Source of the DNA: Candidatus Krumholzibacteriia bacterium
GTDB taxonomy: Bacteria; Krumholzibacteriota; Krumholzibacteriia; LZORAL124-64-63
DNA: 64,000 nucleotides
Assembly: GCA_024762975.1 (NCBI GenBank)
Contig: JANTGJ010000002.1
Span: 5,235-69,234, forward strand
Direction: 5' to 3'
A program made the position numbers and the translations under genes. The notes beneath the pieces are model-generated. The model saw nothing but the letters and a program-made list of their open reading frames with translations, was not told the DNA's origin and ran no database searches. Below are positions 4,051-55,663 of this stretch, piece after piece (within the stretch, counting starts at the first letter, position 1; each line of letters opens with the position of its first letter).

Positions 4051-4078
4051 CGTTGCTGAAGAATTGAGGCGAGCAGGA

Positions 4079-4720: not shown

Positions 4721-4723
4721 TCC

Positions 4724-6954: not shown

Positions 6955-7007
6955 TCGGCCGGTCTTCACGATAGAGTTGGACGGGGCGCAAGCCCGAGGA
7001 GATTTCG

Positions 7008-7562: not shown

Positions 7563-8116
7563 CCGCTGCCGATCTGATCTTCTACGCCCTGGCCGCGCTG
7601 ACGCTGGTGCCGGCGCTGTGGGTGGTGGGCTCACCGAATATCGTCCATGCGGGTTTCAACCTGTTGCTGACGCTACTGGGTGTGGCCGGCCTGTTTGCCT
7701 GGCTCGGCGCCGATTTCCTGGCCGTCGCACAATTGATGGTCTACATCGGCGGTGTGCTGGTACTGGTGCTCTTTACGGTGATGATGACACGCGTGCCGCA
7801 GGCCAGGGAAGCGGATAGCGGGGCGAAGAGAGCGATCCTGCCCGGCCTCTTCGCCCTGGGCGTACTGGTCGTGCTGTTGCTGGTGGCCACGGGCACGCAC
7901 TGGGGCGCGCCGGCCCTGACCGATGCGCAGCCGACGACCGCCGAGATCGGTGCGAATTTCATGACCAGCTACATCTTCCCGTTCGAGTACGTCTCGCTGG
8001 TGCTGCTGGCTGCGCTGATCGGCGCGGCCATCCTGATTCGCGAGCCGCGGGGGACCGAAGAGGATGACGAGGCCGGCGCCGCCGTCGAGACTGCCGAAGA
8101 GGAGGTGCAGTCATGA
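7559..8116 (+). CDS. nuoJ: NADH-quinone oxidoreductase subunit J.
   Basis: GTG at 7559 overlaps the nuoI stop (GTGA). Membrane protein in the ND6 position. The ORF-track N-terminal extension lies inside nuoI. Confidence 0.85.
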   Translation: MTAADLIFYALAALTLVPALWVVGSPNIVHAGFNLLLTLLGVAGLFAWLGADFLAVAQLMVYIGGVLVLVLFTVMMTRVPQAREADSGAKRAILPGLFALGVLVVLLLVATGTHWGAPALTDAQPTTAEIGANFMTSYIFPFEYVSLVLLAALIGAAILIREPRGTEEDDEAGAAVETAEEEVQS

Positions 8117-8424
8117 TGGACGTCGGACTGAGCCATTTCGTGGTCGTTTCCGCGCTGCTTTTCTGCCTGGGCCTGTTCGCGGTGATGAAGCGCCGCAATG
8201 CGGTCGGGATCCTGATGGGGGTCGAGCTGATTCTGAACTCGGCGAACCTGAACTTCGTGGCCTTCTCACGCTACGTGCAACACACGATCGACGGTCAGAT
8301 CATGGCCACCTTCGTGATCGTCCTGGCGGCGGCCGAAGCCGCCGTGGCGCTGGCCATCGTGCTGGCGATGTTCCGCAATTTCGGCAACGTGAACGCCGCG
8401 ACGGCCACGAGCCTGAAGCGATAA
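8113..8424 (+). CDS. nuoK: NADH-quinone oxidoreductase subunit K.
   Basis: About 100 aa with three helices matching ND4L. ATGA overlaps the nuoJ stop. Confidence 0.95.
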   Translation: MMDVGLSHFVVVSALLFCLGLFAVMKRRNAVGILMGVELILNSANLNFVAFSRYVQHTIDGQIMATFVIVLAAAEAAVALAIVLAMFRNFGNVNAATATSLKR

Positions 8425-8440
8425 GGGAGTAGTCGAGGAC

Positions 8441-10579
8441 ATGAACCTTGCGATGAGCGAAAACGCCATCATCACCTGCGCCCTGGCGATCCTGGTGCTG
8501 CCGCTGGCGTCCTACGCGCTGACCTTCTTCTTCGGGAAGAAGCTGCCGCGCAAGGGCGACTTCATCGGCGTCACATTCGTGGGCGCGGCGTGGCTGCTGG
8601 CCATCCGCATCTTCCTGCAATTCTGGCAGCAGTCGGATCCGTCCTTCCGTGTCGAGGCGGGCTTCACCTGGGTGGATCTGGGTGGTTTCTCGATCGATGC
8701 GGGGATCCTGGTCGACGGCATGACCAGCGTGATGCTGATGGTCGTCACGACCGTCAGCTTCTTTGTACACCTGTACTCGACCGGGTACATGCACGGCGAC
8801 CGGCGCTACGAGCGTTTCTTCGCCTTCCTGGGCTTCTTCACCTTCTCCATGATCGGCATCGTACTGTCGAACAACCTGTTCTTCCTGTACGTGTTCTGGG
8901 AGCTGGTGGGTCTGGCCTCGTATCTGCTGATCGGGTTCTTCTTCCACAAACACTCCGCTGCCAACGCCAACAAGAAGGCCTTCCTGACCAACCGTGTCGG
9001 TGATTGGGGCTTCTGGCTGGGCATTCTGACCTTTTTCACAGCCACCGGTACGCTCAATTATTTTGAGCTCTTCGCTCACGTGCACGCCGGTACGATCCAG
9101 GGCACGTTGTTGACCTTCGCCGGATTGGGCCTGTTCATGGGCTGCCTGGGCAAGTCGGCGCAGATGCCTTTGCACATCTGGCTGCCGGACGCGATGGAGG
9201 GCCCGACTCCCGTGTCGGCCCTGATTCATGCTGCGACGATGGTCGCTGCCGGTGTGTATATGGTTGCGCGCCTGTTCCCACTGTTCGGCCCCACCGCGTT
9301 GTTGGTCGTCTGTTATGTGGGTGGGATCACGGCTTTCGTTGCCGCGACGATCGCGCTGGTGAAAACCGACTTCAAACGCGTTCTCGCGTTCTCGACTCTC
9401 AGTCAGCTGGGCTACATGGTCATGTCGCTGGGCGCGGGGGACTCGGTCAACGCGATGTTCCACCTGACGACCCACGCCATGTTCAAGGGCCTGCTGTTCC
9501 TGACCGCCGGTTCGGTGATTCACGCCGTACACTCGCAGGAAATCACCGACATGGGTGGGCTGCGCAAGAAGATGCCGATCACGTTCCTCACCTACATGGT
9601 GGGTACCCTCGCGCTGGCCGGCGTGCCGGGGCTGTCGGGCTTCTATTCGAAGGACGGCATCCTGGGTTCGACCTTGGCCATGGGTATGGTCAACGGGCAC
9701 TACCTGCCGTTCATTCTGGGCATCGTGGCCGCACTGTTGACTCCGTTCTACATGTTCCGCCTGACGTTCCGGGCCTTCTTCGGGAAACCGGCCGATCAGG
9801 AGCGCTACGATCACGCTCACGAGTCTCCCTGGACGATGACCGTTCCGTTGATCGGGCTGGCGATCCTGGCGATCTTCGTTTCGGGTTTCAATACGGCCGA
9901 CAAGGGCTGGTTCAGCAAGTTCGCTGCGCCCTATGACGTGGCGGCGATCGCTGCGCAATACCCGATCGAGAGCGCCGGACATCATCTGGTTGTCGCGGAA
10001 CATGCCGGTGAATCGCACGCCGAGGCCGCACACGCCGAGATGGTGGACCCTCATGGCGGCGAGCACGCGGTGGCCGAAGGTCATGGCGAGGAACATGGCG
10101 GCCATCACGACATCCACCACACCGCACACGTGCGTGCCATGATGATGTCCATCGCGATGGTCATTCTGGGGATTCTCGGTGCCTGGTGGGTCTACTTCCT
10201 GCACCGCATCGATCCTTCAAAGCTGCAGGCCCGGTTGCCCGGCGTCTATCGGGTGTTGCAGGGACAGTATTTCTTCGATGAGTTGTACGCGGCCACGGTC
10301 TACCGCTTCACCTTGTGGTGGTCCCATTTGTGCTCCGCTTTCGATCGCATCGTTGTCGACGGTATCGTGAACGGAACCGGCTATCTGACCCGTATGGTCA
10401 GCTTTGTTTCGGGCTCGTTCGACAGGTACGTTGTCGACGGCGCGGTCAATGGTGTCGCCGCGGTGCTGCAGGGCGCCGGCGAAGGTTTTCGACGTGTTCA
10501 GACCGGTCGCATCCAGACATACCTGGTGTATGTCGCGGCCTCGGTCCTGATCCTGATTCTGATCTATCGAGTCTTGTAG
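8441..10579 (+). CDS. nuoL: NADH-quinone oxidoreductase subunit L, with a His-rich insertion (about aa 512-565).
   Basis: 712 aa antiporter-like subunit matching ND5 (WLPDAMEGPTPVSALIHAATMV). Unusual segment HHLVVAEHAGESHAEAAHAEMVDPHGGEHAVAEGHGEEHGGHHDIHH. Confidence 0.95.
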   Translation: MNLAMSENAIITCALAILVLPLASYALTFFFGKKLPRKGDFIGVTFVGAAWLLAIRIFLQFWQQSDPSFRVEAGFTWVDLGGFSIDAGILVDGMTSVMLMVVTTVSFFVHLYSTGYMHGDRRYERFFAFLGFFTFSMIGIVLSNNLFFLYVFWELVGLASYLLIGFFFHKHSAANANKKAFLTNRVGDWGFWLGILTFFTATGTLNYFELFAHVHAGTIQGTLLTFAGLGLFMGCLGKSAQMPLHIWLPDAMEGPTPVSALIHAATMVAAGVYMVARLFPLFGPTALLVVCYVGGITAFVAATIALVKTDFKRVLAFSTLSQLGYMVMSLGAGDSVNAMFHLTTHAMFKGLLFLTAGSVIHAVHSQEITDMGGLRKKMPITFLTYMVGTLALAGVPGLSGFYSKDGILGSTLAMGMVNGHYLPFILGIVAALLTPFYMFRLTFRAFFGKPADQERYDHAHESPWTMTVPLIGLAILAIFVSGFNTADKGWFSKFAAPYDVAAIAAQYPIESAGHHLVVAEHAGESHAEAAHAEMVDPHGGEHAVAEGHGEEHGGHHDIHHTAHVRAMMMSIAMVILGILGAWWVYFLHRIDPSKLQARLPGVYRVLQGQYFFDELYAATVYRFTLWWSHLCSAFDRIVVDGIVNGTGYLTRMVSFVSGSFDRYVVDGAVNGVAAVLQGAGEGFRRVQTGRIQTYLVYVAASVLILILIYRVL

Positions 10580-10656
10580 GAGCGTTCGAACAATGACCAG
10601 AAACGAACGAGTTCGCTACGAGAGCTGCTGTGTAACCCCCGAGAGGAGCGCCACGC

Positions 10657-12180
10657 ATGGGTGAGCACATTCTTTCCTGGATGACCTTTTTCCCGGTCAT
10701 CGGGGCGGCTGTGATCGCATTCATTCCGTCGGAACGGAAAGAGATCATCAAGACGGTGGCCGCCGCGGCAGCCGCAATACCGCTGGTGCTGGCTGTCCAG
10801 CTCTACATCGGATTCGACCGGGGCACTTCGGCGTTCCAGTTCGTAGAGCACTACACCTGGATCAAGAGCTTCCACATCGAGTACTTCATGGGCGTCGATG
10901 GCCTGAGTGTACCGATGATGTTGCTGACGGCGTTGTTGTCGTTCATCTGCATCATTGCTTCCTGGAGAATCGACAAGGCCGTGAAGGGCTACTTCGCGCT
11001 GTTCCTGATTCTCGAGACGGGAATGTTCGGTGTCTTCAGCGCGTTGGATTTCTTCCTGTTCTATGTGTTCTGGGAAGTGATGCTGTTGCCGATGTACTTC
11101 CTGATCGGCATCTGGGGCGGACCGCGTCGCGAGTACGCCGCGATCAAGTTCTTCCTGTACACACTGGCCGGTTCCGTGCTGATGCTGCTGGCTATGATCG
11201 CCTTCTATCTGAATGTGAGCGATCCGGTCACCGGCGGTCACACTTTCAACATGCTGCACATGTTCAATCAGGCCAATCACAGCGAGTGGCTGCAGTTGAC
11301 CAATGTCCGGCATCTGATCTGGCTGGGCCTGTTCATCGGTTTTGCGATCAAGGTTCCTATCGTACCGTTCCATACCTGGTTGCCCGATGCCCACGTCGAG
11401 GCGCCGACAGCGGTCTCGGTCATTCTGGCCGGCGTGCTGCTGAAGATGGGAACGTACGGTATCCTGCGGATCAGCTACCCGATGCTGCCGGACGCCGCCC
11501 AGTGGTTCGCCTATCCGATGGTCATTCTCGGAGCGATCAACATCCTGTATGGCGCGTTCTGCGCCATGGCGCAGACGGACATGAAAAAGCTTGTTGCCTA
11601 CTCGTCGGTCAGTCACATGGGTTATGTGCTGTTGGGTATGGGCGCGATGTGCAAGGTCGGCGTGGATCTCCAGAGCGCGCAGGCTGCGATCAACGGCGCC
11701 GTCTTCCAGATGTTCAACCACGGTACGATCACGGCCATGATGTTCCTCGGTGTGGGTGTCATCTACGATCGCGCCCACCATCGCGAGATCAACGGCTTCG
11801 GTGGGCTGGGCATGCAGATGCCGGTCTACACCAGCTTCTTCAGCTTCGCGCTGTTCGCCGCTCTGGGCCTGCCGGGCCTGAGCGGCTTCATCAGCGAAGC
11901 GATGATCTTCATGGGCACCTTCCCGGCCTACCGTACGGTTGCGATGGTCAGCGCGCTGGGCATCGTGATCGGCGCCGCCTACGTGTTGTGGATGTTGCAA
12001 CGTGTCTTCCTGGGCCCGAAGAACGACAAGTACGACTCGCTGCCGGACATCAACGCCCGCGAGATGTTCACGCTGGTGCCGATCGGTATCATCGTGCTGT
12101 TGCTGGGTGTGTACCCGATGCCGGTACTGAATCTGATGAAGGTGTCGCTGACGAATCTGATCAAGGTGGTGGCCGGATGA
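10657..12180 (+). CDS. nuoM: NADH-quinone oxidoreductase subunit M.
   Basis: 507 aa, ND4-like (WLPDAHVEAPTAVSVILAGVLLKMG). GAGAGGAG precedes the ATG. Confidence 0.95.
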   Translation: MGEHILSWMTFFPVIGAAVIAFIPSERKEIIKTVAAAAAAIPLVLAVQLYIGFDRGTSAFQFVEHYTWIKSFHIEYFMGVDGLSVPMMLLTALLSFICIIASWRIDKAVKGYFALFLILETGMFGVFSALDFFLFYVFWEVMLLPMYFLIGIWGGPRREYAAIKFFLYTLAGSVLMLLAMIAFYLNVSDPVTGGHTFNMLHMFNQANHSEWLQLTNVRHLIWLGLFIGFAIKVPIVPFHTWLPDAHVEAPTAVSVILAGVLLKMGTYGILRISYPMLPDAAQWFAYPMVILGAINILYGAFCAMAQTDMKKLVAYSSVSHMGYVLLGMGAMCKVGVDLQSAQAAINGAVFQMFNHGTITAMMFLGVGVIYDRAHHREINGFGGLGMQMPVYTSFFSFALFAALGLPGLSGFISEAMIFMGTFPAYRTVAMVSALGIVIGAAYVLWMLQRVFLGPKNDKYDSLPDINAREMFTLVPIGIIVLLLGVYPMPVLNLMKVSLTNLIKVVAG

Positions 12181-12220
12181 TCGCACAGGTTTTCCGGTAC
12201 TGCTCAAGGAGCGTTCCTCA

Positions 12221-13747
12221 ATGGAACTGTTGAATCTGAACATCCCGAGTTGGTCGGATCTGGCGTACTGGCGCCCCGAGGCGATCCTGTGCGGCACCTT
12301 CCTGGCCGCGTTGCTGGGAGACCTGATCGGGCGCGGTAGGCGACCGGCGATCTCCTTCGTGATCTCGGTCTTTGGTCTGATCACCGCCGGTGCGTATTCG
12401 GTGGCCGCCGTGCTGCACGGCGGCGCAGCCCACACGATCATGGGCGATCTGATCATCGTCGACGGTATGGCCGCTTTTTTCCGTCTGTTGTTCATTCTCG
12501 CCGGTCTGGCCACAGTGCTTTTCTCGTGGACGGCCGAAGAAATCATGGGCCGCAAACGTGAGAACAAGGCCGAGTTTTTCTACCTGACCGTCCTGATGAC
12601 CGCGGCGATGATGGTCATGGCCGAAGCCCGCGACCTGCTGATGCTGTTTCTGTCGATGGAAGCGGTCGGCCTGGTCAGCTACGTGATGGCCGGCTACATG
12701 CGCACCTCGCTGCGCAGCACCGAGGCCTCGCTGAAGTATGTCATTTTCGGCGCGGTTTCGAGCGGGATCATGCTGTACGGCCTGTCGCTGCTGTACGGCA
12801 TGACCGGTGCGATGACTTTCGACGGCATCCGTGCGGGATTGCTCGCCGGTGAGGTGAATGGTCTGTCGCTTCTGATCACGGTGATCCTGATTCTGGCGGG
12901 GATGAGCTACAAGATCGCCGCAGTGCCCTTCCACTTCTGGTGCCCCGATGTGTATGAAGGTGCACCGACGCCGGTCGCCGCGATTTTCTCGGTCGGCCCG
13001 AAGGCAGCCGGTTTTGCGCTGATGATCCGGTTTTTCTACACGACCCTGGCTGCCGGCGCCGATCCTTCAGCCAGCGCCCCGCTGATCGAGCTGATCAACT
13101 GGCCGCTGCTGATGGCCGTGATCGCGGCCGTGACGATGACCTATGGCAACCTCGTCGCGCTGCGGCAACTGAACGTCAAACGAATGCTGGCCTATTCGAG
13201 CATCTCCCACGTGGGATACCTGCTGATGGGCTTCGTGCTGCTGACGGATGCCGGGCTGGCTGCCATCCTGTTCTACCTGGCGGTCTACACGCTGATGAAC
13301 CTGGGTGCGTTCTTCGTCGTTGTTGCGCTGAACAACCATATCAAGAGCGAGGAACTGGACGACTACGCGGGCATCGGGTTCCGAGCTCCGTGGCTGGGCA
13401 CGATGATGGTCATCTTCCTGGCCTCGTTGACCGGAGTGCCGCCGTTTGCCGGGTTTGCCGGAAAGTTCTACGTTTTCACCGCGGTCATGGACCGGCAGTG
13501 GTTCTGGCTGGCCATTCTGGCGGCGCTGAACTCGGTCGTCGGCCTGTACTACTACTTCCGCGTGGTCAAGGCGATGTTCCTGACACGGCCCGCCGAGGGC
13601 GCGGACACTACGCCGCTGAAAATCCACTGGCTGCAGTACACGGTCTTGGCGGTACTGGCCGTTCCGACCCTGGTGCTGGGGTTCTGGTTCGGACCGTTGA
13701 AGGTCCTGGCGGATCAGGCGATCGGGTTGTTGAGTACGGGGATGTAA
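12221..13747 (+). CDS. nuoN: NADH-quinone oxidoreductase subunit N.
   Basis: 508 aa, ND2-like (FHFWCPDVYEGAPTPVAAIFSVGPKAAGFAL). Last gene of the operon. Confidence 0.95.
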   Translation: MELLNLNIPSWSDLAYWRPEAILCGTFLAALLGDLIGRGRRPAISFVISVFGLITAGAYSVAAVLHGGAAHTIMGDLIIVDGMAAFFRLLFILAGLATVLFSWTAEEIMGRKRENKAEFFYLTVLMTAAMMVMAEARDLLMLFLSMEAVGLVSYVMAGYMRTSLRSTEASLKYVIFGAVSSGIMLYGLSLLYGMTGAMTFDGIRAGLLAGEVNGLSLLITVILILAGMSYKIAAVPFHFWCPDVYEGAPTPVAAIFSVGPKAAGFALMIRFFYTTLAAGADPSASAPLIELINWPLLMAVIAAVTMTYGNLVALRQLNVKRMLAYSSISHVGYLLMGFVLLTDAGLAAILFYLAVYTLMNLGAFFVVVALNNHIKSEELDDYAGIGFRAPWLGTMMVIFLASLTGVPPFAGFAGKFYVFTAVMDRQWFWLAILAALNSVVGLYYYFRVVKAMFLTRPAEGADTTPLKIHWLQYTVLAVLAVPTLVLGFWFGPLKVLADQAIGLLSTGM

Positions 13748-13865: not shown

Positions 13866-16409
13866 CTACTCCCAGCGCGCCTCCCAGGCCGCGCCCTCTC
13901 CCCGACAATACCGGTCAAACCATTCCAGTATCATCGTGCGGTGCGCGACGCGATTGTCCCAGGTACCGCTGATGCCGTGATCCTCACCGGGGAACAGGAC
14001 CATCTCGACCGGCCGGTCCAGCAACGACAGCGCGGTGAACAGCTGTCTCGATTCGCCGGGTGTGACGTTCGAGTCCGCCTCGCCGTGCAGCAGCAGCAAT
14101 GGCGTGTGGATCCGGTCGGCCCGGAACAGTGGGGAGTGGTCGATGAAATACTGCGGATCACTCCACGGCGTGGCGCCGGCCAGGGCCATGTCGCCGTACG
14201 TCCAGCCCCAGGTGCCCTGGCCCCAGTAGGTGGCCAGATCACTGATGCCGTACATCGAGACGGCGGCGGCGTACAGATCCGTGAAGGTGACCAGGTACTC
14301 GGTCATGAAACCGCCGTAGGAGCCGCCGTAGATGCCGACGGCCTGGCGGTCCAGCCACGGATTCGCATCCAGTGTCTGCTCCGTCGCGGCGACGATGTCG
14401 GCGGCCGCAGCCGGACCCCAGTCGCCCGCGTGGTAGTCGGCGAACTCGTCGCCGAAGCCATAGGCGCCACGCGGGTTGACCACCAGCACCGCATAGCCGT
14501 TGGCGGCGAAGAACTGGTGCGTGCCGTTGAAACCCTGCAGCGTGGGTACCGAGCCGGCGTAGTAATAGACGATCAACGGGCAATTGCCGCTCGGGGGCGC
14601 GGCACAGACCGCGCGGCCGGCCTCGTCGGCGCGGACGGGGGGATACAGCCAGGATTCGATGTGCGTTCCGTCCTCGGCCGTGACTTCAACCGACTCGGGA
14701 CGGCTCCAGGTCCACCGGGCGGACCAGTCGGCCGCGTAGTCCTCGAGCAGGCGGCTCGATCCGGAAGTGCGGCCTCGGTACAGCGCACCGGGCGCCTCGG
14801 CGGTCGAGGCCGTGTAGACAACCCGGTCACCGTCGGGGCTGACGGCGAGCGATCCGAGCGATCCGCCCTGCAGTTCGATCCCGTGCGTTTCCCAGCTCTT
14901 GTTCGGATCGAGACGGAACAGTTCCACTCGCGATCCGGTGGTGGCTTCGACCAGCAGGCGTCCCTGCGCATCGAAGCGGGGCAGGCCGCCGCCTACGTCG
15001 TAGGCCTGCGGTGCCTCTTTCGTGACCCGTCGGAAATCGCGGGAGGCCAGGTCCAGTGCCCAGACCTGCTTGTTGTAGACATTGTGTTCGGCGTGGTCGC
15101 CGCCGACTTCCTCGGGCGGACCGAGAAAGGCCAGAGTCGCGCCGTCGGGCGAGGCGGCCAGACCCTGCGGCCGAACTTCCCACCCTCCGGTGAACGAGGT
15201 CAGCAACTCGTCCGTCCCCTCGGTCAGGTCCAGGCGGTGAATCTCACTGCTGAACCAGGGACGCTCCTTCTGCGGAGCGGTGTGCGCATAGAATACGCTT
15301 TGACCGTCGGCGGAGAAAACCGCGTCATCCAGGACCCGGTCCGCCGGTGTGGTCAGCAGTCGACGAGCGCCGCCGGCGAGGTCCAGCAGATGCAGATGCG
15401 GTCGGGGCGTGTAGTCGGCGACCTCACCGCGCAGGTGGACAACGCGCCGATTTCCGGACTCGGGTTCGGCCGCATCCAGCCCCGCAGTGGAGGAGAAGAG
15501 CAGAAATTTGCCGTCCGGACTGATTCGTACGAAGCCCAGGTCCGGCTCCTGGCGCAATACGGTGCGCAACGGTCCGGTCGGTCCCTGCCAGATGAGCAGG
15601 TCGGCACCCTCGGCACCGTGGCGAATCAGCAACAGGTCATGGCTGTCGGGAAAAAATCCGGCCGGGGTACATTTCCCGCCGCCCAGATCGGATGCCAGCA
15701 ATTCGCCGTCCCAGTTCAGAACGTCCAGCCGGTTCAACAGAGGCTCGCGCCGCGATAGCTTGCGCAGGATCAGCTTGCCGTCATCGCTGATGGCCAGCCC
15801 GGCCGATCGGGGCTGGGAGGCCAGGAACCCGAATTCGGTCAGGGCGGAGTTCCGGACCAGGGACCAGGTCGGCGGCATCTCGTTGTCGGTAACGGCGCTC
15901 AGGGCCGGCGTTCCCACGCTGCGGCCCTGGATGGTGTACCATCCGGCGCGCAGCGTCTGGGTGGCGGAGTAGAAATCTTCGTCCTCGGTTCCCGTTGCCT
16001 GGACGCCGTCGACGAACAAGGCGCGGCCGCCGGCCAGCCTCAGCGTGATCTCACAGCGCGCAGGGACGCGCAATACGGACGAGATCCAGTAGATTCCGCT
16101 TTCACCGGGTGGCACGGCGCCCTGGGCATCGCAGGCGATCGTTTTCCAGCGCAGGGAGCGGTCGGGCGCGAACGAGAGCTTCTGGTCGGCATCGGGCAGG
16201 AACTTGTCGGGTGTGATTTCCAACACATCGTGGAATTCGCCGCGCGGAAAAGCGGCTTCCTCCGCCTGCGGCGGCAGCGGCAGCGGGCCGAGCAGCAGTA
16301 CCTCGCCCGGGACGAGCGTGTCGGCGGGGGCTTCGGCGGCGGATCCGGACGCCGGCACGATGCCGAGGGCCAGGAGGCTGAGGATTACAAGGGTCTTGCG
16401 CAAGGGCAT
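13866..16409 (-). CDS. Secreted S9-family serine peptidase (acylaminoacyl-peptidase or dipeptidyl-peptidase type): N-terminal PA14-like and TolB-like beta-propeller region, C-terminal alpha/beta-hydrolase.
   Basis: ATG at 16407-16409 gives signal peptide MPLRKTLVILSLLALGIVPASGSA. Nucleophile elbow GGSYGG, then LLLLHGEADSNV...DHGI supplies the Asp and His of the triad. Confidence 0.85.
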   Translation of the reverse strand: MPLRKTLVILSLLALGIVPASGSAAEAPADTLVPGEVLLLGPLPLPPQAEEAAFPRGEFHDVLEITPDKFLPDADQKLSFAPDRSLRWKTIACDAQGAVPPGESGIYWISSVLRVPARCEITLRLAGGRALFVDGVQATGTEDEDFYSATQTLRAGWYTIQGRSVGTPALSAVTDNEMPPTWSLVRNSALTEFGFLASQPRSAGLAISDDGKLILRKLSRREPLLNRLDVLNWDGELLASDLGGGKCTPAGFFPDSHDLLLIRHGAEGADLLIWQGPTGPLRTVLRQEPDLGFVRISPDGKFLLFSSTAGLDAAEPESGNRRVVHLRGEVADYTPRPHLHLLDLAGGARRLLTTPADRVLDDAVFSADGQSVFYAHTAPQKERPWFSSEIHRLDLTEGTDELLTSFTGGWEVRPQGLAASPDGATLAFLGPPEEVGGDHAEHNVYNKQVWALDLASRDFRRVTKEAPQAYDVGGGLPRFDAQGRLLVEATTGSRVELFRLDPNKSWETHGIELQGGSLGSLAVSPDGDRVVYTASTAEAPGALYRGRTSGSSRLLEDYAADWSARWTWSRPESVEVTAEDGTHIESWLYPPVRADEAGRAVCAAPPSGNCPLIVYYYAGSVPTLQGFNGTHQFFAANGYAVLVVNPRGAYGFGDEFADYHAGDWGPAAAADIVAATEQTLDANPWLDRQAVGIYGGSYGGFMTEYLVTFTDLYAAAVSMYGISDLATYWGQGTWGWTYGDMALAGATPWSDPQYFIDHSPLFRADRIHTPLLLLHGEADSNVTPGESRQLFTALSLLDRPVEMVLFPGEDHGISGTWDNRVAHRTMILEWFDRYCRGEGAAWEARWE

Positions 16410-16703
16410 GATGGCTCCCGGGTTCGGGTTCTCCAGAGGGTGGATAGGCAAGAATAGCGTGCTCGAGAGGCGAGTTCAATGTTCCGCCTCGGACTCCGTG
16501 GCTCATCGTACAGCGAACCGTACCGGGAATCCAGCGGTGGACTGCGGTTGCCGGATGGCTCCGGTTTGGCTAGGATTCAGTGAAAGTAGAGGAGGAGTTT
16601 CGTTCGACCGCAGGAAAGGGATCACGCGAATTTCCTACATCGCCATAGCTGAAGTTTTCCCAGCCCGGCTGCCTACACCGGATCCGTAGCTCTCCGCGGA
16701 TTT

Positions 16704-16772
16704 GGCACGGCGAAAGGCCGCTACGGTTTCGCCGGAAACGGCGGAATCAGCTCCCGAATTTGGAAGGAAAAC
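16704..16772 (+). promoter_or_regulatory. Structured moaA leader with two short GC stems capped by GAAA(G) loops. Candidate molybdenum-cofactor-sensing or other cis-regulatory RNA.
   Basis: cggcGAAAGgccg (16708-16720) and cgccgGAAAcggcg (16730-16743) lie just before GGAAGGA and the moaA ATG. ctccc at 16751 could pair with the RBS. No covariance model was run. Confidence 0.25.
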
Positions 16773-17780
16773 ATGTTCGAACTCACCTCAGCCGGGGCGG
16801 GCTCGTCGCCCTTGGTACCCTTGATCGACCGCCAGGGACGGCGCCTGGACTACCTGCGCCTGGCCGTCACCGACCGCTGCAATCTGCGGTGCCGCTATTG
16901 CATGCCCGCTGAGGGGGTGCCCGACGCCGGTCACGACGCGATCCTGCGCACCGGGGAAATGGTGCGTCTGGCCGGCCTGTTGTGTGGTCACGGGATCGGT
17001 CGCATCCGTATCACCGGCGGTGAGCCGCTGGTGCGCAAAGGGGTCGTTGGTCTGATCTCGGAGCTGGCAGCCCTGCCCACGGAGCCCGAGATCCTGCTGA
17101 CCACCAACGGTCTGCTGCTCAGCGAGAACCTGGCCGCCCTGCAGGCAGCGGGCCTGCGCCGCATCAACCTGAGCCTCGATTCCCTGGATCCCGCCAAATG
17201 GGAGCGCATCACCCGCCGCCGGGGGTTTGATCGAGTTCTGAATGCAATCGACGCGGTGTTGGCCGCCGGCCTGGGGCTGAAGATCAATATGGTGGTTCTG
17301 CCGGGCATCAACGACGACGAGTTGGCCGCTTTTGCGGATCTGACCCGGCAGCATCCCGTCACTGTACGCTTTATCGAGGCCATGGGGTTCGACGGCTCGG
17401 GGCGTCCGATGCGGACCCTGAGCGGGGATGCGATCATCGCGGAACTGGAGACCCGCTATTGCCTGGAGCCCATCCCGCGGGCGCAGGGGGCGGTCGCCGA
17501 CGAGTTCGTGATCCCCGGCCATGCAGGTCGGATCGGGGTGATCCGTGGACACCATCGGACCTTCTGCAGCGACTGCACCCGCCTGCGCATCGACGCGCGC
17601 GGGTATTTGCGGACCTGCCTGTACGGACAGCCCGTGGTGGATCTGAAAGCGATGGTGCGCGCGGAGGCGAATGACGAGCAGATCCTGGCGGCAATCCGTG
17701 GCGCTCTGGCCCGGCGGCACGCCAACGGTTTCGAGGCTGCGGCTCTGCGGTTGGACAGCATGGCGAGTATCGGCGGTTGA
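16773..17780 (+). CDS. moaA: GTP 3',8-cyclase MoaA (radical SAM, molybdenum cofactor biosynthesis).
   Basis: CNLRCRYCMP radical-SAM motif. C-terminal CSDCTRLRIDARGYLRTCLY is the second cluster site. Full-length match to MoaA. Confidence 0.95.
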   Translation: MFELTSAGAGSSPLVPLIDRQGRRLDYLRLAVTDRCNLRCRYCMPAEGVPDAGHDAILRTGEMVRLAGLLCGHGIGRIRITGGEPLVRKGVVGLISELAALPTEPEILLTTNGLLLSENLAALQAAGLRRINLSLDSLDPAKWERITRRRGFDRVLNAIDAVLAAGLGLKINMVVLPGINDDELAAFADLTRQHPVTVRFIEAMGFDGSGRPMRTLSGDAIIAELETRYCLEPIPRAQGAVADEFVIPGHAGRIGVIRGHHRTFCSDCTRLRIDARGYLRTCLYGQPVVDLKAMVRAEANDEQILAAIRGALARRHANGFEAAALRLDSMASIGG

Positions 17781-17797
17781 ATCGGGCCGCATCGGCG

Positions 17798-17840
17798 GGC
17801 ACGACAAAGAATGGCACGACAAAGGATGGCACGATGGGCG
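17798..17840 (+). repeat. 2.8 copies of a 15-bp tandem repeat (ggcacgacaaagRat) across the moaA stop and the MOSC start.
   Basis: ggcacgacaaagaat / ggcacgacaaaggat / ggcacgatgggcg. The third copy contains the ATG of the MOSC gene. Confidence 0.5.
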
Positions 17841-18295
17841 TTCTGAAAGCGATTTGCATCAGCGCGGAAAAGGGTACGGTCAAGACCCCGGTGCCGGTGG
17901 CGGTCCTGAAACCCGAACACGGACTCGAGGGCGATGCTCACGCCGGCAAGTGGCACCGCCAGGTCTCCCTGCTCCCTGCAGAAAGCATTGGAAAAGTGCG
18001 CGCGCTCCTGCCGGAACTGGCTGATGGCGCCTTTGCCGAGAACCTGATCACCGAAGGAGTCGACCTGGCGGGAGTGGCCATCGGCGACCGGATTACCGTG
18101 GGCGAGGCCGTCCTCAAAGTCACCCAGATCGGCAAGGAATGCCACCAGGGGTGCGCTATCCGCGAGATTACCGGCGACTGTATCATGCCCCGGGAAGGGA
18201 TCTTTTGCCGGGTGTTGGCGGGAGGAAAAATCGCCCCGGGCAGCACCGTGGACCTCGAGAGCGGACTCCAGGACCGTTCGTTTCCCGCCTTGTAG
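17834..18295 (+). CDS. MOSC-domain protein (MoCo sulfurase C-terminal-like).
   Basis: MGVLKAICIS...LEGDAHAG...QVSLLPAESI...CHQGCAIREITGDCIMPREGIFCRVL matches the MOSC beta-barrel family. Placed between moaA and the molybdate transporter. Confidence 0.8.
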   Translation: MGVLKAICISAEKGTVKTPVPVAVLKPEHGLEGDAHAGKWHRQVSLLPAESIGKVRALLPELADGAFAENLITEGVDLAGVAIGDRITVGEAVLKVTQIGKECHQGCAIREITGDCIMPREGIFCRVLAGGKIAPGSTVDLESGLQDRSFPAL

Positions 18296-18315
18296 GGGAC
18301 CGGGAGCGCAGACCT

Positions 18316-19482
18316 ATGCCGCAGCCTGTCCCGCATTGGCGATGGAAGAAAGAGATCAGTGGCGCTGTTGGTGATCTGGGCATCACCATTCCCTTGGCCT
18401 ACGCCCTGGTGGTGACCGCCGGATTCCCGCCCGGGCGAATTTTTTTCTTGTGGGGGACAGCGTACGTCCTGACGGGTCTGTTCTACCGTGTGCCGGTCAG
18501 TATCCAGCCTCTGAAGGCCATGGCGGTGATCGTCATTTCCGGCACCGTGAGTCCGTCCGTTTTGACCACGGCTGCGGTGGGGTACGGAATCCTGTTCCTG
18601 CTGCTGGCGGTTACCGGTGTGGTACCCCTGATTCGCAAGGCTTTCAGTGAGCCCCTGGTGCGAGGTGTGCAACTGGGGATCGGACTGATGTTGGCTCGCA
18701 AGGCGTGGGGCCTGGTGTCCGGGCATCCGTTCCTTCTGCGGGGCTCGGAGGTTCCGGGTTGGATTTCCTGGGTGGCGGTGCTGCTCATCGTGGTCCTGCT
18801 GGTGCTCCCCCGATTGCGGTCACGGCCCGGAATCGTGCTGGGTGTTCTGGCCGCGGGTCTGGCCAGCGGTGTCATCCTGGGCCGGGGGGAGGTGGCTGCC
18901 GGCCCGCCCGGCGGCGTGATTGCATGGACCCCACCGCAATGGCATCTGCTGGGCCCGGCGTTCTTCCTTCTCATGCTGCCCCAACTGCCCCTGACACTGG
19001 GCAACGCTGTGATCGCCGAGGAAGATGTTTGCCGGATCAGTTTCGGGGAACGCGCCGGACGCGTGACGGTGGCGCGACTGGCCGGTTCCATCGGCCTGCT
19101 GGATGTGGCGATGGGCCTTCTGGGTGGTTTCCCGGTCTGTCACGGCGCCGGCGGCAGCATGGCCCATGCCCGTTTTGGAGGTCGCACCGGGCGGACGACG
19201 ATTCTCCTGGGGGGGATCTACGTCCTGCTGGCAGTGATTCCATCCGGGGCGGACTTCCTCTTCCTGATTCCGGTGCCGCTCCTGGGGGCTCTGCTGCTGG
19301 GCGTCAGTTGGGGTATGATCCGTTTGGTGGCTCTGCTGCCGGACCTGCAACAGACGGCCATTGCGGTGACGGTTGGCCTGGTAGGATTTTTCGTACGCAA
19401 TCTGGCGATTGCCCTGGCGGTGGGCTGGGTGCTGCAGATGCTGTTGAATCACTGGAGACGGAGTCGAGAGCCGGTCTCGTAG
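18316..19482 (+). CDS. MOT1-family molybdate transporter.
   Basis: Two MOT1 signature motifs: VPVSIQPLKAMAVIV and FPVCHGAGGSMAHARFGGRTG. About 10 predicted TM helices. ATG at 18316. The upstream ORF-track extension overlaps the MOSC gene and is rejected. Confidence 0.8.
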   Translation: MPQPVPHWRWKKEISGAVGDLGITIPLAYALVVTAGFPPGRIFFLWGTAYVLTGLFYRVPVSIQPLKAMAVIVISGTVSPSVLTTAAVGYGILFLLLAVTGVVPLIRKAFSEPLVRGVQLGIGLMLARKAWGLVSGHPFLLRGSEVPGWISWVAVLLIVVLLVLPRLRSRPGIVLGVLAAGLASGVILGRGEVAAGPPGGVIAWTPPQWHLLGPAFFLLMLPQLPLTLGNAVIAEEDVCRISFGERAGRVTVARLAGSIGLLDVAMGLLGGFPVCHGAGGSMAHARFGGRTGRTTILLGGIYVLLAVIPSGADFLFLIPVPLLGALLLGVSWGMIRLVALLPDLQQTAIAVTVGLVGFFVRNLAIALAVGWVLQMLLNHWRRSREPVS

Positions 19483-19503: not shown

Positions 19504-21315
19504 CTATTTCTTTTTCCCCGCCCCACCGGGTTTCTTTTTCCTGGTTTTTGCCGCTTTTGCTGGCTTGCGAGGTTTGTGTCCCGCTGCAGTTTCCTGGCGC
19601 GGCGGCCGGGAACGCCTACCCTGGCCACCGGCGGTCCCTCGACGCCCGCTCTGGCCATCCCGCGCCCGGGAAAACCGGATCACTTTTCCACCGATCCGGG
19701 CCGTCTGGAGCTTCGCGATCATGCCCTCGGGAATATCGTCCGGCATTTCGACCGTCGAGTAATTCGGATAGATTCGCACCTGCCCGATGAACCGGCTACG
19801 GATCCCCGTCTCGCCGGTAATGGCGCCCACGATGTTCCGCACTTCGATTCCGTCCTCGGAGCCGACCTCGATCCGGAAGAGCGCCATATTGGCGGGCCCG
19901 CCGCGGCGACCCCCGCCCCCGCCGCCGCCGCGACGATCCCCGCGGCCGTCCCGGCGAGCCGGCGGATCATCCCACCGCCCGATCTGCAGATCCGGAGTCA
20001 TGTCCGCCCGCAACGGCTTGTCCTGCTGGGCCAGGCAGAGCGCACTGGCCGCCAGCTGGATGATGTCGATCTCCAGCGACTCCATCAATTCGAAGGCCAA
20101 AGTCTCGAAGAAATCCTGACGCTCTTCGGCCATCACACCGGCGAGTTTCTCCTGGAATTTCTCGACGCGCCGGGCCGTCACCTCATCGTGTGTCGGCAGT
20201 TCCATCGGTTTCAGTTTCTGGCGTGTGACCCGCTCGATGGTCTGCAGCACGCGACGCTCGCGGGGCCCCAGAAAAAGGATCGCCTTGCCCGCCCGTCCGG
20301 CCCGGCCGGTGCGGCCGATCCGGTGCACATAGGCGTCCAGGTCGCCCGGCAGGTCGTAGTTGATCACCAGTGAAATCCGGTCCACGTCCAGGCCGCGGGC
20401 GGCGACATCGGTAGCAACGACCAGATTCACCTGTCCGTTCTTGAGCCGCTTGATCGTACGCTCGCGTGCTCGCTGATCCATGTCCCCGTTCAGGGCGGCC
20501 ACATCGTAGCCGCGCGCGGACAGTTTCTCGGCCAGTGAGGTGGTCTCCAGGCGCGTGCGGGTGAAGATGAGCACACCGTCGTAGGACTCGCTCTCGAGGA
20601 TCCGGGCCAGCGCCTCGAATTTCACGAACGGCCGCAACACCAGATAAGCCTGGTCGATGTTGTCCGCCGTGATCGTCTTGGCCTCGATGCGCATCTCCAC
20701 CGGGTCGTTCAGGTGGCGATTGCAGATGTGCCGGATCTGCGGCGGCATGGTGGCCGAAAAAAGAGCCAGCTGCCGTTCCGCGGGTGCGAGCGCCATGATG
20801 GCTTCCACCTCGTCGACAAACCCCATGCGCAGCATCTCGTCCGCCTCGTCCAGCACGATGCTGTGAATGCCGTCCAGTTTCAGCGTGCCGCGATCCAGGT
20901 GATCCTGGATCCGTCCCGGCGTTCCGACGATGACCTGCGGTCCTCGACGCAGCTGATTGAACTGGAAGGAGTAGCGCTGTCCGCCGTAGATCGGACATAC
21001 GTGGAATCCGGGCAGGTGACGGGCGAAGCTCTGGAACGCTTCGGCAACCTGGATGGCCAATTCGCGGGTCGGCGCCAGGACCAGGACCTGGGGATAGGTC
21101 CCCTTCAGGTCGATTCGCGCCAACAGGGGCAGCGCAAAGGCGGCCGTCTTGCCGGTGCCGGTCTGGGCCAGGCCCAGCACATCGCGACCTTCGAGCAACG
21201 GAGGGATGCACGCGGCCTGGATGGGCAGCGGAGTCTCGTAGCCCATTTCCTGAACGGCGCTCAACAGAGCGGGGGGCAGGTTCAACTCATTGAACCCGAC
21301 TTGATCCTGGGACAT
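19504..21315 (-). CDS. DEAD-box ATP-dependent RNA helicase (DeaD/CsdA-like) with DbpA-type RNA-binding domain and a C-terminal RGG/Gly-rich plus Lys-rich tail.
   Basis: Q-motif, AQTGTGKT, DEAD, SAT and HRIGRTGRAG motifs. C-terminal ...RRDGRGDRRGGGGGGGRRGG... then ...KPRKPAKAAKTRKKKPGGAGKKK. Confidence 0.95.
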   Translation of the reverse strand: MSQDQVGFNELNLPPALLSAVQEMGYETPLPIQAACIPPLLEGRDVLGLAQTGTGKTAAFALPLLARIDLKGTYPQVLVLAPTRELAIQVAEAFQSFARHLPGFHVCPIYGGQRYSFQFNQLRRGPQVIVGTPGRIQDHLDRGTLKLDGIHSIVLDEADEMLRMGFVDEVEAIMALAPAERQLALFSATMPPQIRHICNRHLNDPVEMRIEAKTITADNIDQAYLVLRPFVKFEALARILESESYDGVLIFTRTRLETTSLAEKLSARGYDVAALNGDMDQRARERTIKRLKNGQVNLVVATDVAARGLDVDRISLVINYDLPGDLDAYVHRIGRTGRAGRAGKAILFLGPRERRVLQTIERVTRQKLKPMELPTHDEVTARRVEKFQEKLAGVMAEERQDFFETLAFELMESLEIDIIQLAASALCLAQQDKPLRADMTPDLQIGRWDDPPARRDGRGDRRGGGGGGGRRGGPANMALFRIEVGSEDGIEVRNIVGAITGETGIRSRFIGQVRIYPNYSTVEMPDDIPEGMIAKLQTARIGGKVIRFSRARDGQSGRRGTAGGQGRRSRPPRQETAAGHKPRKPAKAAKTRKKKPGGAGKKK

Positions 21316-42274: not shown

Positions 42275-42329
42275 ATACCTGCCCAGATCGGAGCCGGTCC
42301 GTCGGGACCGGCTCCGAGTGTTGTCGTTG

Positions 42330-43397: not shown

Positions 43398-43424
43398 TTC
43401 TGCCTCCTGCAGTTGTGCCCTCTG

Positions 43425-43916: not shown

Positions 43917-43978
43917 CGCGTTTCCTCCTGTTCGGGGTTCCTTCGCAATTTCCTTCAAAGCAATCAATGGCCTCTCCA

Positions 43979-55555: not shown

Positions 55556-55663
55556 GATCCACGGGGGTTCCCATTTCGCGCTAAAAAAATTTCCGAAATT
55601 CGCGATCTCGCCTTTCGCCACAAGAAAACCAATATCGCTCCACACTGATTGAGAGGGGATCTC

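What the first reader, a model, noticed from the sequence alone, without database searches (positions are those of the whole stretch)
16452..19482. Compact molybdenum module: structured leader, moaA, MOSC protein, MOT1-family molybdate transporter.
moaA, a MOSC-domain protein and a transporter carrying both MOT1 signature motifs (PLKAMA...; CHGAGG...FGGRTG) are packed with 53- and 20-bp gaps. MOT1-type molybdate carriers are mostly described in plants and algae and are much less characterised in bacteria than ModABC. The 320-bp region upstream of moaA has no ORF. It ends in two GC stems with GAAA-type loops and a possible anti-RBS just before the start codon. That fits a cofactor-responsive leader, by analogy with Moco RNA elements upstream of moaA in other bacteria. 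I cannot confirm the Moco motif by eye.
Basis: partly seen in the sequence, partly recalled or inferred. Interest (0 to 1): 0.65.

Follow-up and report, generated by a model that had tools for sequence, protein, structure and literature searches.

The report
Variant Moco riboswitch, moaA–MOSC–MOT1 operon
A three-gene operon for making and supplying the molybdenum cofactor (MoaA, a small MOSC protein and a plant-type MOT1 molybdate carrier) sits behind a real Moco-family riboswitch, and that riboswitch belongs to a rewired subclass with no P3 stem that standard Rfam annotation mostly misses.

Summary
moaA (16773-17780), a 153-aa MOSC gene (17834-18295) and a 388-aa PF16983/MOT1 transporter gene (18316-19482) lie 53 and 20 bp apart. 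Rfam RF01055 (Moco/Tuco riboswitch) matches 16645-16785 at 37.0 bits, just above its 36-bit threshold.

The match is real. Of 80 genomic loci encoding relatives of the transporter, 27 carry the same RNA in front of moaA. The 3' strand of helix P1 covers the ribosome-binding site and ends one base before the AUG, and no terminator follows. That fits a translational OFF switch.

The module is not new: the same arrangement was described in Caldithrix abyssi in 2017.

The aptamer type appears to be new. It lacks P3 (the literature's "tungsten-cofactor" signature) and carries linked changes in the junction core: AGGG>ACGG, a 3-nt YAG insert before CUCCC, loss of the J1/2 G, and a shorter J5/1. A pattern for this core found 71 metagenomic copies. 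All 71 are full-length aptamers, and moaA follows in all 70 variant loci (metagenomic and genomic) with enough downstream sequence. Most come from marine Marinimicrobia. Only 2 of 20 tested reach Rfam's threshold.

Whether the ligand contains Mo or W is unresolved.

The parts
16452..16644 (+). Upstream part of the moaA leader / divergent intergenic region (the S9 peptidase gene runs leftwards from 16451). No element identified.
   Evidence: No Rfam match above chance. No sigma-70-like promoter or terminator. The ORFs listed here overlap the peptidase gene and are not credible.
16645..16785 (+). Moco/Tuco-family riboswitch aptamer (RF01055), P3-less, with a variant junction core
   Evidence: RF01055 37.0 bits against gathering score 36. 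96.6 bits with a covariance model built from 8 aptamers, the window's own among them. The helices covary in 65 distinct variant homologues.
16655..16660 (+). P1 5' strand (UUUUCC), the anti-RBS strand; followed by J1/2 'CA' (16661-16662) where canonical aptamers have 'GA'
   Evidence: cmscan alignment. The minimum-energy fold forms this helix. J1/2 starts with G in 23/23 canonical and 2/65 variant RNAs.
16663..16718 (+). P2 (GCCCGGCUGCC / GGCGAAAGGC) with a tetraloop-receptor-like CCUACA...CACGG element and a 10-bp distal hairpin (16678-16705) that is longer here than in relatives
   Evidence: P2 pairs covary.
16719..16724 (+). J2/4 'CGCUAC': only 5-6 nt where P3 would be, so P3 is absent. C16724 replaces the conserved first G of AGGG.
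   Evidence: The P3 model positions are deleted in the cmscan alignment. Alignments A3 and A4.
16725..16748 (+). P4, a 10-bp helix capped by a GAAA tetraloop (16735-16738)
   Evidence: The six inner pairs, which the search pattern did not fix, covary across the variants.
16749..16751 (+). 3-nt insert 'AGC' (within AUCAGCUCCC) that defines the variant junction; canonical RNAs read GC-CUCCC
   Evidence: 71 metagenomic matches to the pattern TACGGT-N6-GGAAAC-N6-ATYAGCTCCC, all with 6/6 spacing.
16753..16763 (+). P5 (CC / GG) with loop CGAAUUU; followed by J5/1 'AA', one A shorter than canonical
16762..16771 (+). Purine-rich ribosome-binding site GGAAGGAAAA. Its last six bases (16766-16771) are the P1 3' strand. 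The AUG is at 16773.
   Evidence: Read directly from the sequence. P1 pairing.
16773..17780 (+). moaA, GTP 3',8-cyclase (radical SAM; first step of molybdopterin synthesis)
   Evidence: TIGR02666 323.4 bits against a 284 cutoff. PF04055 and PF06463. CNLRCRYC motif, C265/C268/C282 and a C-terminal GG.
17798..17834 (+). 15-nt tandem repeat (GGCACGACAAAGAAT x2.5) filling the moaA-MOSC spacer; it contains the AAGGA RBS of the MOSC gene
17834..18295 (+). Stand-alone MOSC-domain protein, 153 aa
   Evidence: PF03473 53.3 bits. Resembles the C-terminal half of MoaC/MOSC fusion proteins: NF011069 179 bits, below its full-length cutoff. Related to YiiM structures, E 2e-4. A MOSC gene recurs in about half of the homologous operons.
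18316..19482 (+). MOT1-family (PF16983) anion transporter, 388 aa, with the SLC26/SulP-type 7+7 fold and no STAS domain
   Evidence: PF16983 130.9 bits in 2 stretches. AlphaFold model pLDDT 90.9. Best solved match is the SLC26Dg transmembrane domain, TM-score 0.75-0.78 at 17% identity.
18493..18531 (+). MOT1 motif 1 region (PVSIQPLKAMAVI, residues 60-72), on the first beta-strand/half-helix element of the model
   Evidence: Invariant P60, Q64, P65, L66, K67 and M69 in 30 homologues. Strand 63-65 and helix 67-74 in the model.
19123..19191 (+). MOT1 motif 2 region (GGFPVCHGAGGSMAHARFGGRTG, residues 270-292), on the second beta-strand/half-helix element of the model
   Evidence: Invariant G270, G271, F272, P273, C275, H276, G277, G279, G280, T291 and G292. 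Strand 274-276 and helix 278-286 in the model.

Best explanation
This is one operon, moaA-MOSC-MOT1, under a cis-acting riboswitch that senses the metal-pterin cofactor. When the finished cofactor (Moco, or its tungsten analogue) is plentiful, it binds the aptamer at 16645-16785 and stabilises helix P1. The 3' strand of P1 (16766-16771) is part of the ribosome-binding site and ends one base before the moaA AUG, so translation initiation is blocked. No terminator follows, so control is translational, as in E. coli moaA. When cofactor is scarce, P1 opens and moaA is translated. Expression of the downstream MOSC and transporter genes presumably rises too. Each has its own RBS, so that step would need polarity or changed mRNA stability and is inferred, not shown. 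MoaA starts pterin synthesis. The MOT1-type carrier is an SLC26-fold secondary transporter without a STAS domain, with its two family motifs at the predicted anion site. It most likely imports molybdate, and possibly tungstate. The small MOSC protein most likely handles sulfur or the cofactor late in maturation; this is the weakest assignment. The aptamer is a distinct structural subclass of the family: it has no P3 and the multi-helix junction is remodelled.
For: Shown here.
- RF01055 hit at gathering score.
- The same RNA precedes moaA in 27 of 80 genome loci chosen only because they encode a MOT1 relative, always on the same strand 1.05-1.25 kb upstream of the transporter gene.
- Helices are supported by covariation in 65 distinct variant sequences: 25 of 33 pairs change on both sides; 83.8% of cells are paired against 71.3% in shuffles (0 of 500 shuffles as high) and 29-45% when partners are slid.
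- P1 overlaps the RBS and there is no terminator.
- In marine variants the AUG itself lies inside the P1 3' strand.
- moaA follows in 70 of 70 variant loci with enough downstream sequence.
- Typical downstream content is moaA, MOT1, MoaC-Mog, MoeA and MOSC.
- Protein identities and the transporter fold.

From the literature.
- The E. coli moaA Moco RNA is a genetic OFF switch that needs Moco synthesis (PMC2408646).
- Plant and algal MOT1 proteins are high-affinity molybdate carriers that lack STAS (PMC10385300).
Against: - No ligand binding, reporter or transport data exist for this RNA or for any bacterial PF16983 protein that I could find.
- The Rfam score is only 1 bit above threshold, and several nucleotides that are near-invariant in canonical aptamers are changed. 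Identical ligand specificity therefore cannot be assumed.
- P3-less aptamers are attributed to the tungsten cofactor in the literature (PMC2408646, PMC11725836).
- The two closest transporter relatives (L002 at 83% and L003 at 68% identity) have no riboswitch, so the linkage is not obligatory.
- The published eukaryotic MOT1 motifs are only partly matched: about 13 of 19 and about 6 of 10 specified positions (my count from the motifs and the sequence).
- How the two downstream genes are co-repressed is inferred.
Confidence: 0.72

Rival explanations
1. The same architecture, but dedicated to tungsten. The P3-less aptamer senses the tungsten cofactor (Tuco/Wco) and the MOT1-type carrier imports tungstate for tungstoenzymes.
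For: - P3 is absent.
- Regulski et al. found that P3-less RNAs track tungsten metabolism in 17 of 19 organisms and associate with MPT-synthesis genes such as moaA (PMC2408646).
- The same rule was applied to Eubacterium limosum (PMC11725836).
- The relatives are mostly anaerobic or sediment FCB-group lineages.
Against: - No tungsten-specific gene (tupABC, wtpABC, AOR family) is in the window or in 52 downstream proteins from homologous operons.
- P3-plus and P3-less aptamers control the same moaA-MOT1 operon type within Calditrichota: L009, L031 and L033 have P3, L006 and L007 do not. P3 therefore does not track operon content here.
- Most variant copies are in water-column Marinimicrobia. Seawater is rich in molybdate and tungsten use there is thought to be uncommon; this is general knowledge and was not tested.
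- The P3 rule is a correlation, never a binding measurement.
Confidence: 0.17
2. The remodelled junction has changed the ligand. The variant aptamer senses a different pterin species (cPMP, metal-free MPT, MPT-AMP or a dinucleotide form) rather than mature Moco or Tuco.
For: - Three junction strands that are near-invariant in canonical RNAs change together.
- In other riboswitch classes, changes in core nucleotides have marked a switch of ligand (general knowledge).
- The variant is tied strictly to moaA, the first pathway step (70 of 70).
Against: - The controlled genes are the same as for canonical aptamers: moaA plus the rest of the Moco pathway and a transporter. There is no genomic hint of a different effector.
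- L103 and L121 keep the canonical J1/2 'GA' together with the variant P4/P5 junction, which suggests gradual structural drift within one function.
- The P4 tetraloop, P2 receptor, P5 and the UCCCG...UUGG core are retained.
Confidence: 0.07
3. The Rfam hit is a chance or decayed match and the leader is not a functional riboswitch; or the transporter carries sulfate or another anion unrelated to the cofactor.
For: - The score is only 1 bit above threshold.
- The thermodynamic fold is not exceptional (z = -1.6).
- Some sources name relatives 'SulP family sulfate permease'.
Against: - Five genomic and 71 metagenomic copies of the same variant are known (65 distinct sequences), with compensatory changes and invariant placement before moaA.
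- There is no SulP (PF00916) hit for this protein, and PF16983 scores 131 bits.
- The transporter gene sits inside Moco operons in at least 28 loci across several phyla.
Confidence: 0.04

Closest known systems
E. coli moaA Moco riboswitch (Rfam RF01055; Regulski et al. 2008, PMC2408646)
   Same: Same family model with the P1-P2-P4-P5 architecture, a GAAA tetraloop on P4, and the UCCCG...UUGG core. Same position directly upstream of moaA. Same expression platform, with the RBS inside or adjacent to the P1 3' strand, giving a translational OFF switch.
   Different: No P3 here. The junction core is altered: J1/2 GA>CA, AGGG>ACGG, a 3-nt insert before CUCCC, and J5/1 one A shorter. P2 has an internal loop and a long distal hairpin. 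The Rfam score is 37 bits, against 70-86 bits for canonical relatives.
P3-less 'Tuco/Wco' riboswitches (Regulski 2008; Eubacterium limosum, PMC11725836)
   Same: P3 is absent and the RNA is associated with an MPT-synthesis gene.
   Different: Canonical P3-less relatives (for example L006, L007, L012) keep the standard AGGG / GCCUCCC / GGAAAGGAG core, which this RNA does not. There is no tungsten-specific gene context here.
Caldithrix abyssi Cabys_2007-2011 locus (Kublanov et al. 2017, PMC5317091)
   Same: A Moco riboswitch upstream of a locus encoding MoaA, a PF16983 predicted molybdate transporter and a MOSC protein, in an FCB-group bacterium.
   Different: The Caldithrix-type operon also encodes MoaC and MoeA. 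In the related loci read here, gene order is moaA-MOT1-moaC/mog-moeA-MOSC with a canonical aptamer core. The window has only three genes, with MOSC before the transporter, and the variant aptamer.
Eukaryotic MOT1 molybdate transporters (Chlamydomonas and Arabidopsis; PMC10385300)
   Same: Same Pfam family (PF16983 x2). No STAS domain. Both signature regions are recognisable: QP(L/M)K and P.CHG(A/S)GG...FG(A/G)R.G.
   Different: The published motifs are matched only in part. The bacterial protein is shorter (388 aa). Substrate, affinity and direction of transport are untested.
SLC26Dg / SulP transporters (PDB 5da0, 5iof)
   Same: Same 7+7 inverted-repeat fold (TM-score 0.75-0.78), with the anion site formed by two opposed half-helices. 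This implies an elevator-type secondary transporter.
   Different: 17% identity, no STAS domain, and different motifs at the binding site.

Membership tests
Moco/Tuco riboswitch (Rfam RF01055) | Reaches the family's curated covariance-model threshold | tested here: met
   37.0 bits against gathering score 36, full-length match to model positions 1-135. Borderline.
Moco/Tuco riboswitch (Rfam RF01055) | P1, P2, P4 and P5 helices supported by covariation in homologues | tested here: met
   In 65 distinct sequences of the same subclass, P1 changes on both sides in 6/6 pairs, P2 in 9/10, P2b in 4/4 and inner P4 in 6/9; 0 of 500 shuffles reach the observed score. P5 (2 bp) is invariant and so uninformative.
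Moco/Tuco riboswitch (Rfam RF01055) | GAAA tetraloop on P4 with an 11-nt-type receptor in P2 | tested here: inconclusive
   The GAAA loop is present (16735-16738). The receptor reads CCUACA...CACGG instead of CCUAAG...UAUGG. An AC platform is a known natural receptor variant (PMC3300017), but docking was not tested.
Moco/Tuco riboswitch (Rfam RF01055) | Conserved junction nucleotides (CUCC-GA-GCC; A-GGG; GCC-UCCC; GG-AAA-GGAG) | tested here: not met
   The window reads UUCC-CA-GCC; A-CGG; AUC-AGC-UCCC; GG-AA-GGAA. The same changes recur in 65 distinct RNAs, so this is a subclass, not decay.
Moco/Tuco riboswitch (Rfam RF01055) | Lies in the 5' leader of Moco synthesis, transport or utilisation genes | tested here: met
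   Directly upstream of moaA-MOSC-MOT1. moaA follows in 70 of 70 variant loci.
Moco/Tuco riboswitch (Rfam RF01055) | Cofactor-dependent repression / ligand binding | not testable with these tools
   Needs reporter genetics. Direct binding has not been shown even for the E. coli RNA because the cofactor is unstable (PMC2408646).
'Tuco' (tungsten-cofactor) subclass of RF01055 | Absence of the P3 stem | tested here: met
   Only 5-6 nt lie between P2 and P4 (16719-16724), and the P3 model positions are deleted.
'Tuco' (tungsten-cofactor) subclass of RF01055 | Organism or operon carries tungsten-specific genes (tupABC, wtpABC, AOR-type enzymes) | tested here: inconclusive
   None in the 64-kb window or in 52 downstream proteins of homologous operons. 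The rest of the genome is not available.
MOT1 molybdate transporter family (PF16983) | Two PF16983 domains above Pfam's threshold, and a better match than SulP | tested here: met
   130.9 bits against a 30-bit cutoff, 2 stretches; no PF00916 hit at E<0.01.
MOT1 molybdate transporter family (PF16983) | Published signature motifs PXPVQPMKX(I/L)(A/G)AXA and FGXMPXCHG(S/A)GGLAXQ(Y/H)XFG(A/G)RXG (PMC10385300) | tested here: inconclusive
   The window has PVSIQPLKAMAVIV and LGGFPVCHGAGGSMAHARFGGRTG. There is no exact regular-expression match. By my count about 6 of 10 and 13 of 19 specified positions are identical. The QP(L/M)K and P.CHGAGG...FGGR.G cores are invariant in 30 bacterial homologues.
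MOT1 molybdate transporter family (PF16983) | SulP-like membrane core without a STAS domain | tested here: met
   The 388-aa model is entirely a 7+7 transmembrane core (pLDDT 90.9) and matches SLC26 transmembrane domains only.
MOT1 molybdate transporter family (PF16983) | High-affinity molybdate transport | not testable with these tools
   I found no experimental work on any bacterial member. Only predictions exist (PMC5317091, PMC5840216).
MoaA (GTP 3',8-cyclase) | Equivalog HMM above cutoff, N-terminal CX3CX2C, C-terminal cluster cysteines and a GG tail | tested here: met
   TIGR02666 323.4 bits against 284.05. CNLRCRYC; C265/C268/C282; the protein ends ...SIGG.
MOSC domain proteins | PF03473 above threshold with the conserved cysteine | tested here: met
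   53.3 bits against 22.7. The Cys in GKECHQGC aligns to the cysteine in the PRQPCSK segment of a solved YiiM structure. That this is the conserved MOSC cysteine is from general knowledge. Function untested.

The most novel reading that the evidence does not exclude
The moaA leader represents an uncatalogued structural subclass of the Moco/Tuco riboswitch, defined by ACGG, an AUYAGC insert, loss of the J1/2 G and absence of P3. The subclass is common in Marinimicrobia and related FCB-group bacteria and is largely invisible to Rfam RF01055. Its remodelled junction reflects a different way of recognising the metal-pterin, and possibly a different Mo/W or pterin-form selectivity. That would break the simple rule that P3-less aptamers sense the tungsten cofactor.
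Probability: 0.3. Interest if true: 0.7.

Novelty: new variant of a known kind. Interest (0 to 1): 0.5.

Why it matters
The Moco riboswitch is one of the few widespread classes with no solved structure (still 'of unknown structure' in a December 2024 review, PMC11672702) and no direct binding data. The only accepted subclass marker, presence or absence of P3, is a correlation. A second, well-populated natural subclass with coordinated changes in three junction strands does three things.

1. It points to the nucleotides likely to line the ligand pocket or to compensate for one another.
2. It gives a natural test of the rule that P3-less aptamers sense the tungsten cofactor, because it occurs in molybdate-rich marine water-column bacteria.
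3. It shows that standard annotation under-counts cofactor-regulated operons in abundant marine lineages: only 2 of 20 copies pass Rfam's threshold.

For the proteins, riboswitch linkage in about 28 loci is the best available evidence that bacterial PF16983 carriers serve cofactor synthesis. It also marks these genes as candidates for the 'no known Mo transporter' genomes noted in comparative surveys (PMC6147048).

The module as such is ordinary and already predicted in Caldithrix abyssi.

Tried and rejected
- Chance Rfam match: rejected by homologues and covariation.
- Moco-II motif (RF01713): a different Rfam family, not hit in any scan.
- Another Rfam family claiming the variant: none. A marine copy gives only RF01055, at 19.6 bits.
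- A specific new pairing for the variant junction, either GCU/AGC as in the window's minimum-energy fold or C16724 with the inserted G: not supported. The middle position does not covary, and the key bases were fixed by my search pattern. The free junction columns show only lineage clusters.
- Solved structure of a MOT1 relative by sequence: none.
- AFDB fold search for a direct comparison with plant MOT1: the library was unavailable.
- Naming the source organism from exact-sequence clusters: the entries carry no names. Taxonomy therefore rests on the nearest relative, a Krumholzibacteriia MAG with 83% identity in the transporter, and on FCB-type genes in the window (T9SS sorting domain, C25 peptidase).
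- Promoter search in the leader: nothing found. The sigma-70 consensus may not apply to this lineage.
- modABC, tupABC, wtpABC or Mo/W enzymes in the window: none among 35 proteins scanned.
- Riboswitch upstream in the two closest transporter relatives, L002 and L003: absent even with filters off.

Full report
**1. What is there**

Region 16452-19482 holds three same-strand genes behind a long untranslated leader.

- moaA (16773-17780) passes the NCBIfam equivalog model for GTP 3',8-cyclase: TIGR02666, 323 bits against a 284 cutoff. It has the radical-SAM CX3CX2C motif, the C-terminal cluster cysteines and the terminal Gly-Gly.
- The mechanical ORF list starts the next two genes too early. The credible starts are ATG 17834 for a 153-aa MOSC protein (PF03473, 53 bits) and ATG 18316 for a 388-aa PF16983/MFS_MOT1 protein (131 bits, two stretches).
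- Each start is preceded by a purine-rich ribosome-binding site, and the gaps are exactly 53 and 20 bp.
- An independent public assembly of the identical sequence has the same three gene calls.
- The operon is bounded by a divergent S9 peptidase gene (13866-16451, minus strand) and a convergent DeaD helicase gene (19504-21315, minus strand).

**2. The leader is a Moco-family riboswitch**

A whole-window Rfam scan returns a single hit: RF01055 at 16645-16785, 37.0 bits against a gathering score of 36. The alignment shows the following elements.

- P1: UUUUCC 16655-16660 paired with GGAAAA 16766-16771.
- P2, with a long distal hairpin.
- No P3. Only CGCUA(C) separates P2 from P4.
- P4, with a GAAA tetraloop at 16735-16738.
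- P5, 2 bp.

The minimum-energy fold reproduces P1, the P2 hairpin and P4, although its energy is not exceptional (z = -1.6).

The P1 3' strand is part of the GGAAGGAAAA ribosome-binding site and ends one base before the AUG. No terminator-like hairpin follows. The design is therefore the same as at E. coli moaA, where the RNA acts as a Moco-dependent OFF switch (PMC2408646).

**3. Comparative support**

The transporter has about 1,600 detectable relatives, mainly in Calditrichota, Marinimicrobia/Fidelibacterota, KSB1, Gemmatimonadota and Ignavibacteria. A genome-collection scan seeded with a 30-sequence alignment gave 80 loci. The nearest is a Krumholzibacteriia MAG at 83% identity.

I built a covariance model from eight Rfam-confirmed aptamers. 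It finds the RNA in 27 of the 80 loci, always on the gene strand and 1.05-1.25 kb upstream of the transporter gene, with moaA in between.

The usual operon is moaA, MOT1, MoaC-Mog fusion, MoeA and MOSC, sometimes with MoeB and MoaE. The window carries a shortened version with MOSC moved forward.

The two closest relatives (L002, L003) lack the RNA even with filters off, so the linkage is frequent but not obligatory.

**4. Prior knowledge of the module**

- Kublanov et al. (PMC5317091) reported a Moco riboswitch upstream of a Caldithrix abyssi locus encoding MoaA, a PF16983 'predicted molybdate transporter', MoaC, MoeA and a MOSC protein.
- Marietou et al. (PMC5840216) predicted PF16983 proteins of sulfate reducers to be molybdate carriers.
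- Reviews note putative bacterial MOT1 members (PMC10385300).
- A 2018 survey of Mo utilisation still listed MOT1 as eukaryote-only and found 278 Mo-using bacteria with no known transporter (PMC6147048).
- I found no experimental study of a bacterial member.

The module is therefore a new member of a predicted kind.

**5. The aptamer is a variant**

Canonical relatives score 70-86 bits with Rfam. The window, L004 and L005 score 37-43 bits. The model-based alignment shows why. Five of the 28 RNAs share a package of changes at positions that are otherwise near-invariant. They are the window, L004 and L005 (GC about 0.6) and L011 and L042 (GC about 0.4).

- The first base of P4: AGGG becomes ACGG.
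- A 3-nt insert: GC-CUCCC becomes AU(C/U)AGCUCCC.
- One A is lost between P5 and P1.
- The G of the J1/2 'GA' is lost.

A metagenome scan with a pattern specific to the P4 part of this package (TACGGT-N4-9-GGAAAC-N4-9-ATYAGCTCCC) returned 71 contigs, all with 6/6 spacing. All 71 are full-length aptamers by the covariance model (41.9-92.6 bits).

Together with the five genomic copies they give 65 distinct sequences with strong covariation in P1, P2, P2b and the inner P4 pairs, none of which the pattern fixed.

J1/2 was also not in the pattern. Its first base is G in 23 of 23 canonical RNAs and in only 2 of 65 variants. All variants lack P3. Many marine members carry an extra hairpin inside the P5 loop.

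moaA follows in 70 of 70 variant loci with at least 300 nt of downstream sequence. In the marine members the AUG itself lies in the P1 3' strand.

Names attached to near-identical proteins place the marine carriers in Candidatus Marinimicrobia.

Rfam's own model recognises only 2 of 20 tested variants at threshold. It gives a typical marine copy 19.6 bits, and no other family matches that copy.

The literature I could search describes only the P3-plus and P3-less subclasses. Moco-II is a separate motif. The tertiary structure was still unknown in late 2024.

I therefore regard the junction variant as an undescribed subclass. The caveat is that my search covers open-access text only.

**6. Mo or W?**

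By the published rule, a P3-less aptamer senses the tungsten cofactor. The evidence here does not settle this.

Against a tungsten-only reading:
- There is no tungsten-specific gene in the window or in 52 downstream proteins of homologous operons.
- P3-plus and P3-less aptamers control the same operon type within Calditrichota.
- The variant is abundant in water-column Marinimicrobia.

For it:
- The 2008 correlation (PMC2408646).
- The sediment or anaerobic habitat of many relatives.

I give the tungsten reading about 0.17.

**7. The proteins**

The transporter model is confident (pLDDT 90.9). It superposes on SLC26/SulP transmembrane domains (SLC26Dg, TM-score 0.75-0.78, 17% identity) and has no STAS domain.

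The two family motifs (residues 60-72 and 270-292) fall on the two short strand/half-helix elements (63-74 and 274-286). In this fold those elements form the anion site; that placement is inferred from knowledge of the fold. The core residues are invariant in 30 homologues.

The published eukaryotic motifs are matched only in part.

The MOSC protein resembles the MOSC half of MoaC-MOSC fusions and the YiiM structures, and it keeps a cysteine at the aligned position. It recurs in about half of the operons. Its role is not established.

**8. Verdict**

- The module is ordinary for FCB-group bacteria.
- The riboswitch belongs to a distinct subclass that standard annotation mostly misses, and that is the part worth following up.

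Noticed in passing
L091:7644-8381 (minus strand); same slot in L082, L084, L088, L092, L102, L119, L128, L134, L145, L148, L151: In the Marinimicrobia operons under the variant riboswitch (moaA, MoaC-Mog, X, MoeA, MoeB, MoaE), gene X is a 245-aa TauE/SafE (TSUP, PF01925) membrane protein. It sits where the MOT1 carrier sits in other lineages. It is a candidate alternative molybdate/tungstate permease.
   Followed up: partly
window 17798-17834: A 15-nt tandem repeat (GGCACGACAAAGAAT, 2.5 copies, 95% match) fills the moaA-MOSC spacer and carries the MOSC ribosome-binding site. Its meaning is unknown.
   Followed up: no
L009:4747-4913, L031:1682-1849, L033:25-192 versus L006:4832-4966, L007:4780-4913: Within Calditrichota the same moaA-MOT1 operon is preceded by aptamers either with a long P3 hairpin or with none. 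P3 status therefore does not track operon content in this group.
   Followed up: partly
L092, L093, L100, L104 and many other marine loci (alignment A4 columns ~140-173): Most marine variant aptamers carry an extra hairpin of about 25 nt inside the P5 loop (for example CCCGAU-UCCUUGG-GUAAC-UUGGAAU-AAUUUGG). The window and canonical RNAs lack it.
   Followed up: no
L002 (whole locus) and L003:3800-7167: The two closest transporter relatives have no Moco-type RNA. In L003, moaA-MOT1 sits inside a longer operon. In L002 a 419-aa ORF precedes the transporter gene.
   Followed up: partly
window 2930-13747 (+): A complex I operon with NuoA, B, C, D, H, I, L, M and N homologues. NuoD is followed directly by NuoH, so there is no room for NuoE, F and G. 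This is the 11-subunit type, which lacks the NADH-oxidising module.
   Followed up: no
window 34630-45052 (-) and 47610-50069 (-), 55649-56953 (+): A cluster of DUF11/DUF3344 surface-protein genes that includes a 1,982-aa ORF (36425-42373), plus a C25 (gingipain-type) peptidase and a protein with a T9SS Por_Secre_tail sorting domain. This fits an FCB-group organism.
   Followed up: no
window 16709-16721: The P2 3' strand can form a local hairpin on its own (CGGC-GAAAG-GCCG). It competes with P2 and could be part of the ligand-free conformation.
   Followed up: no
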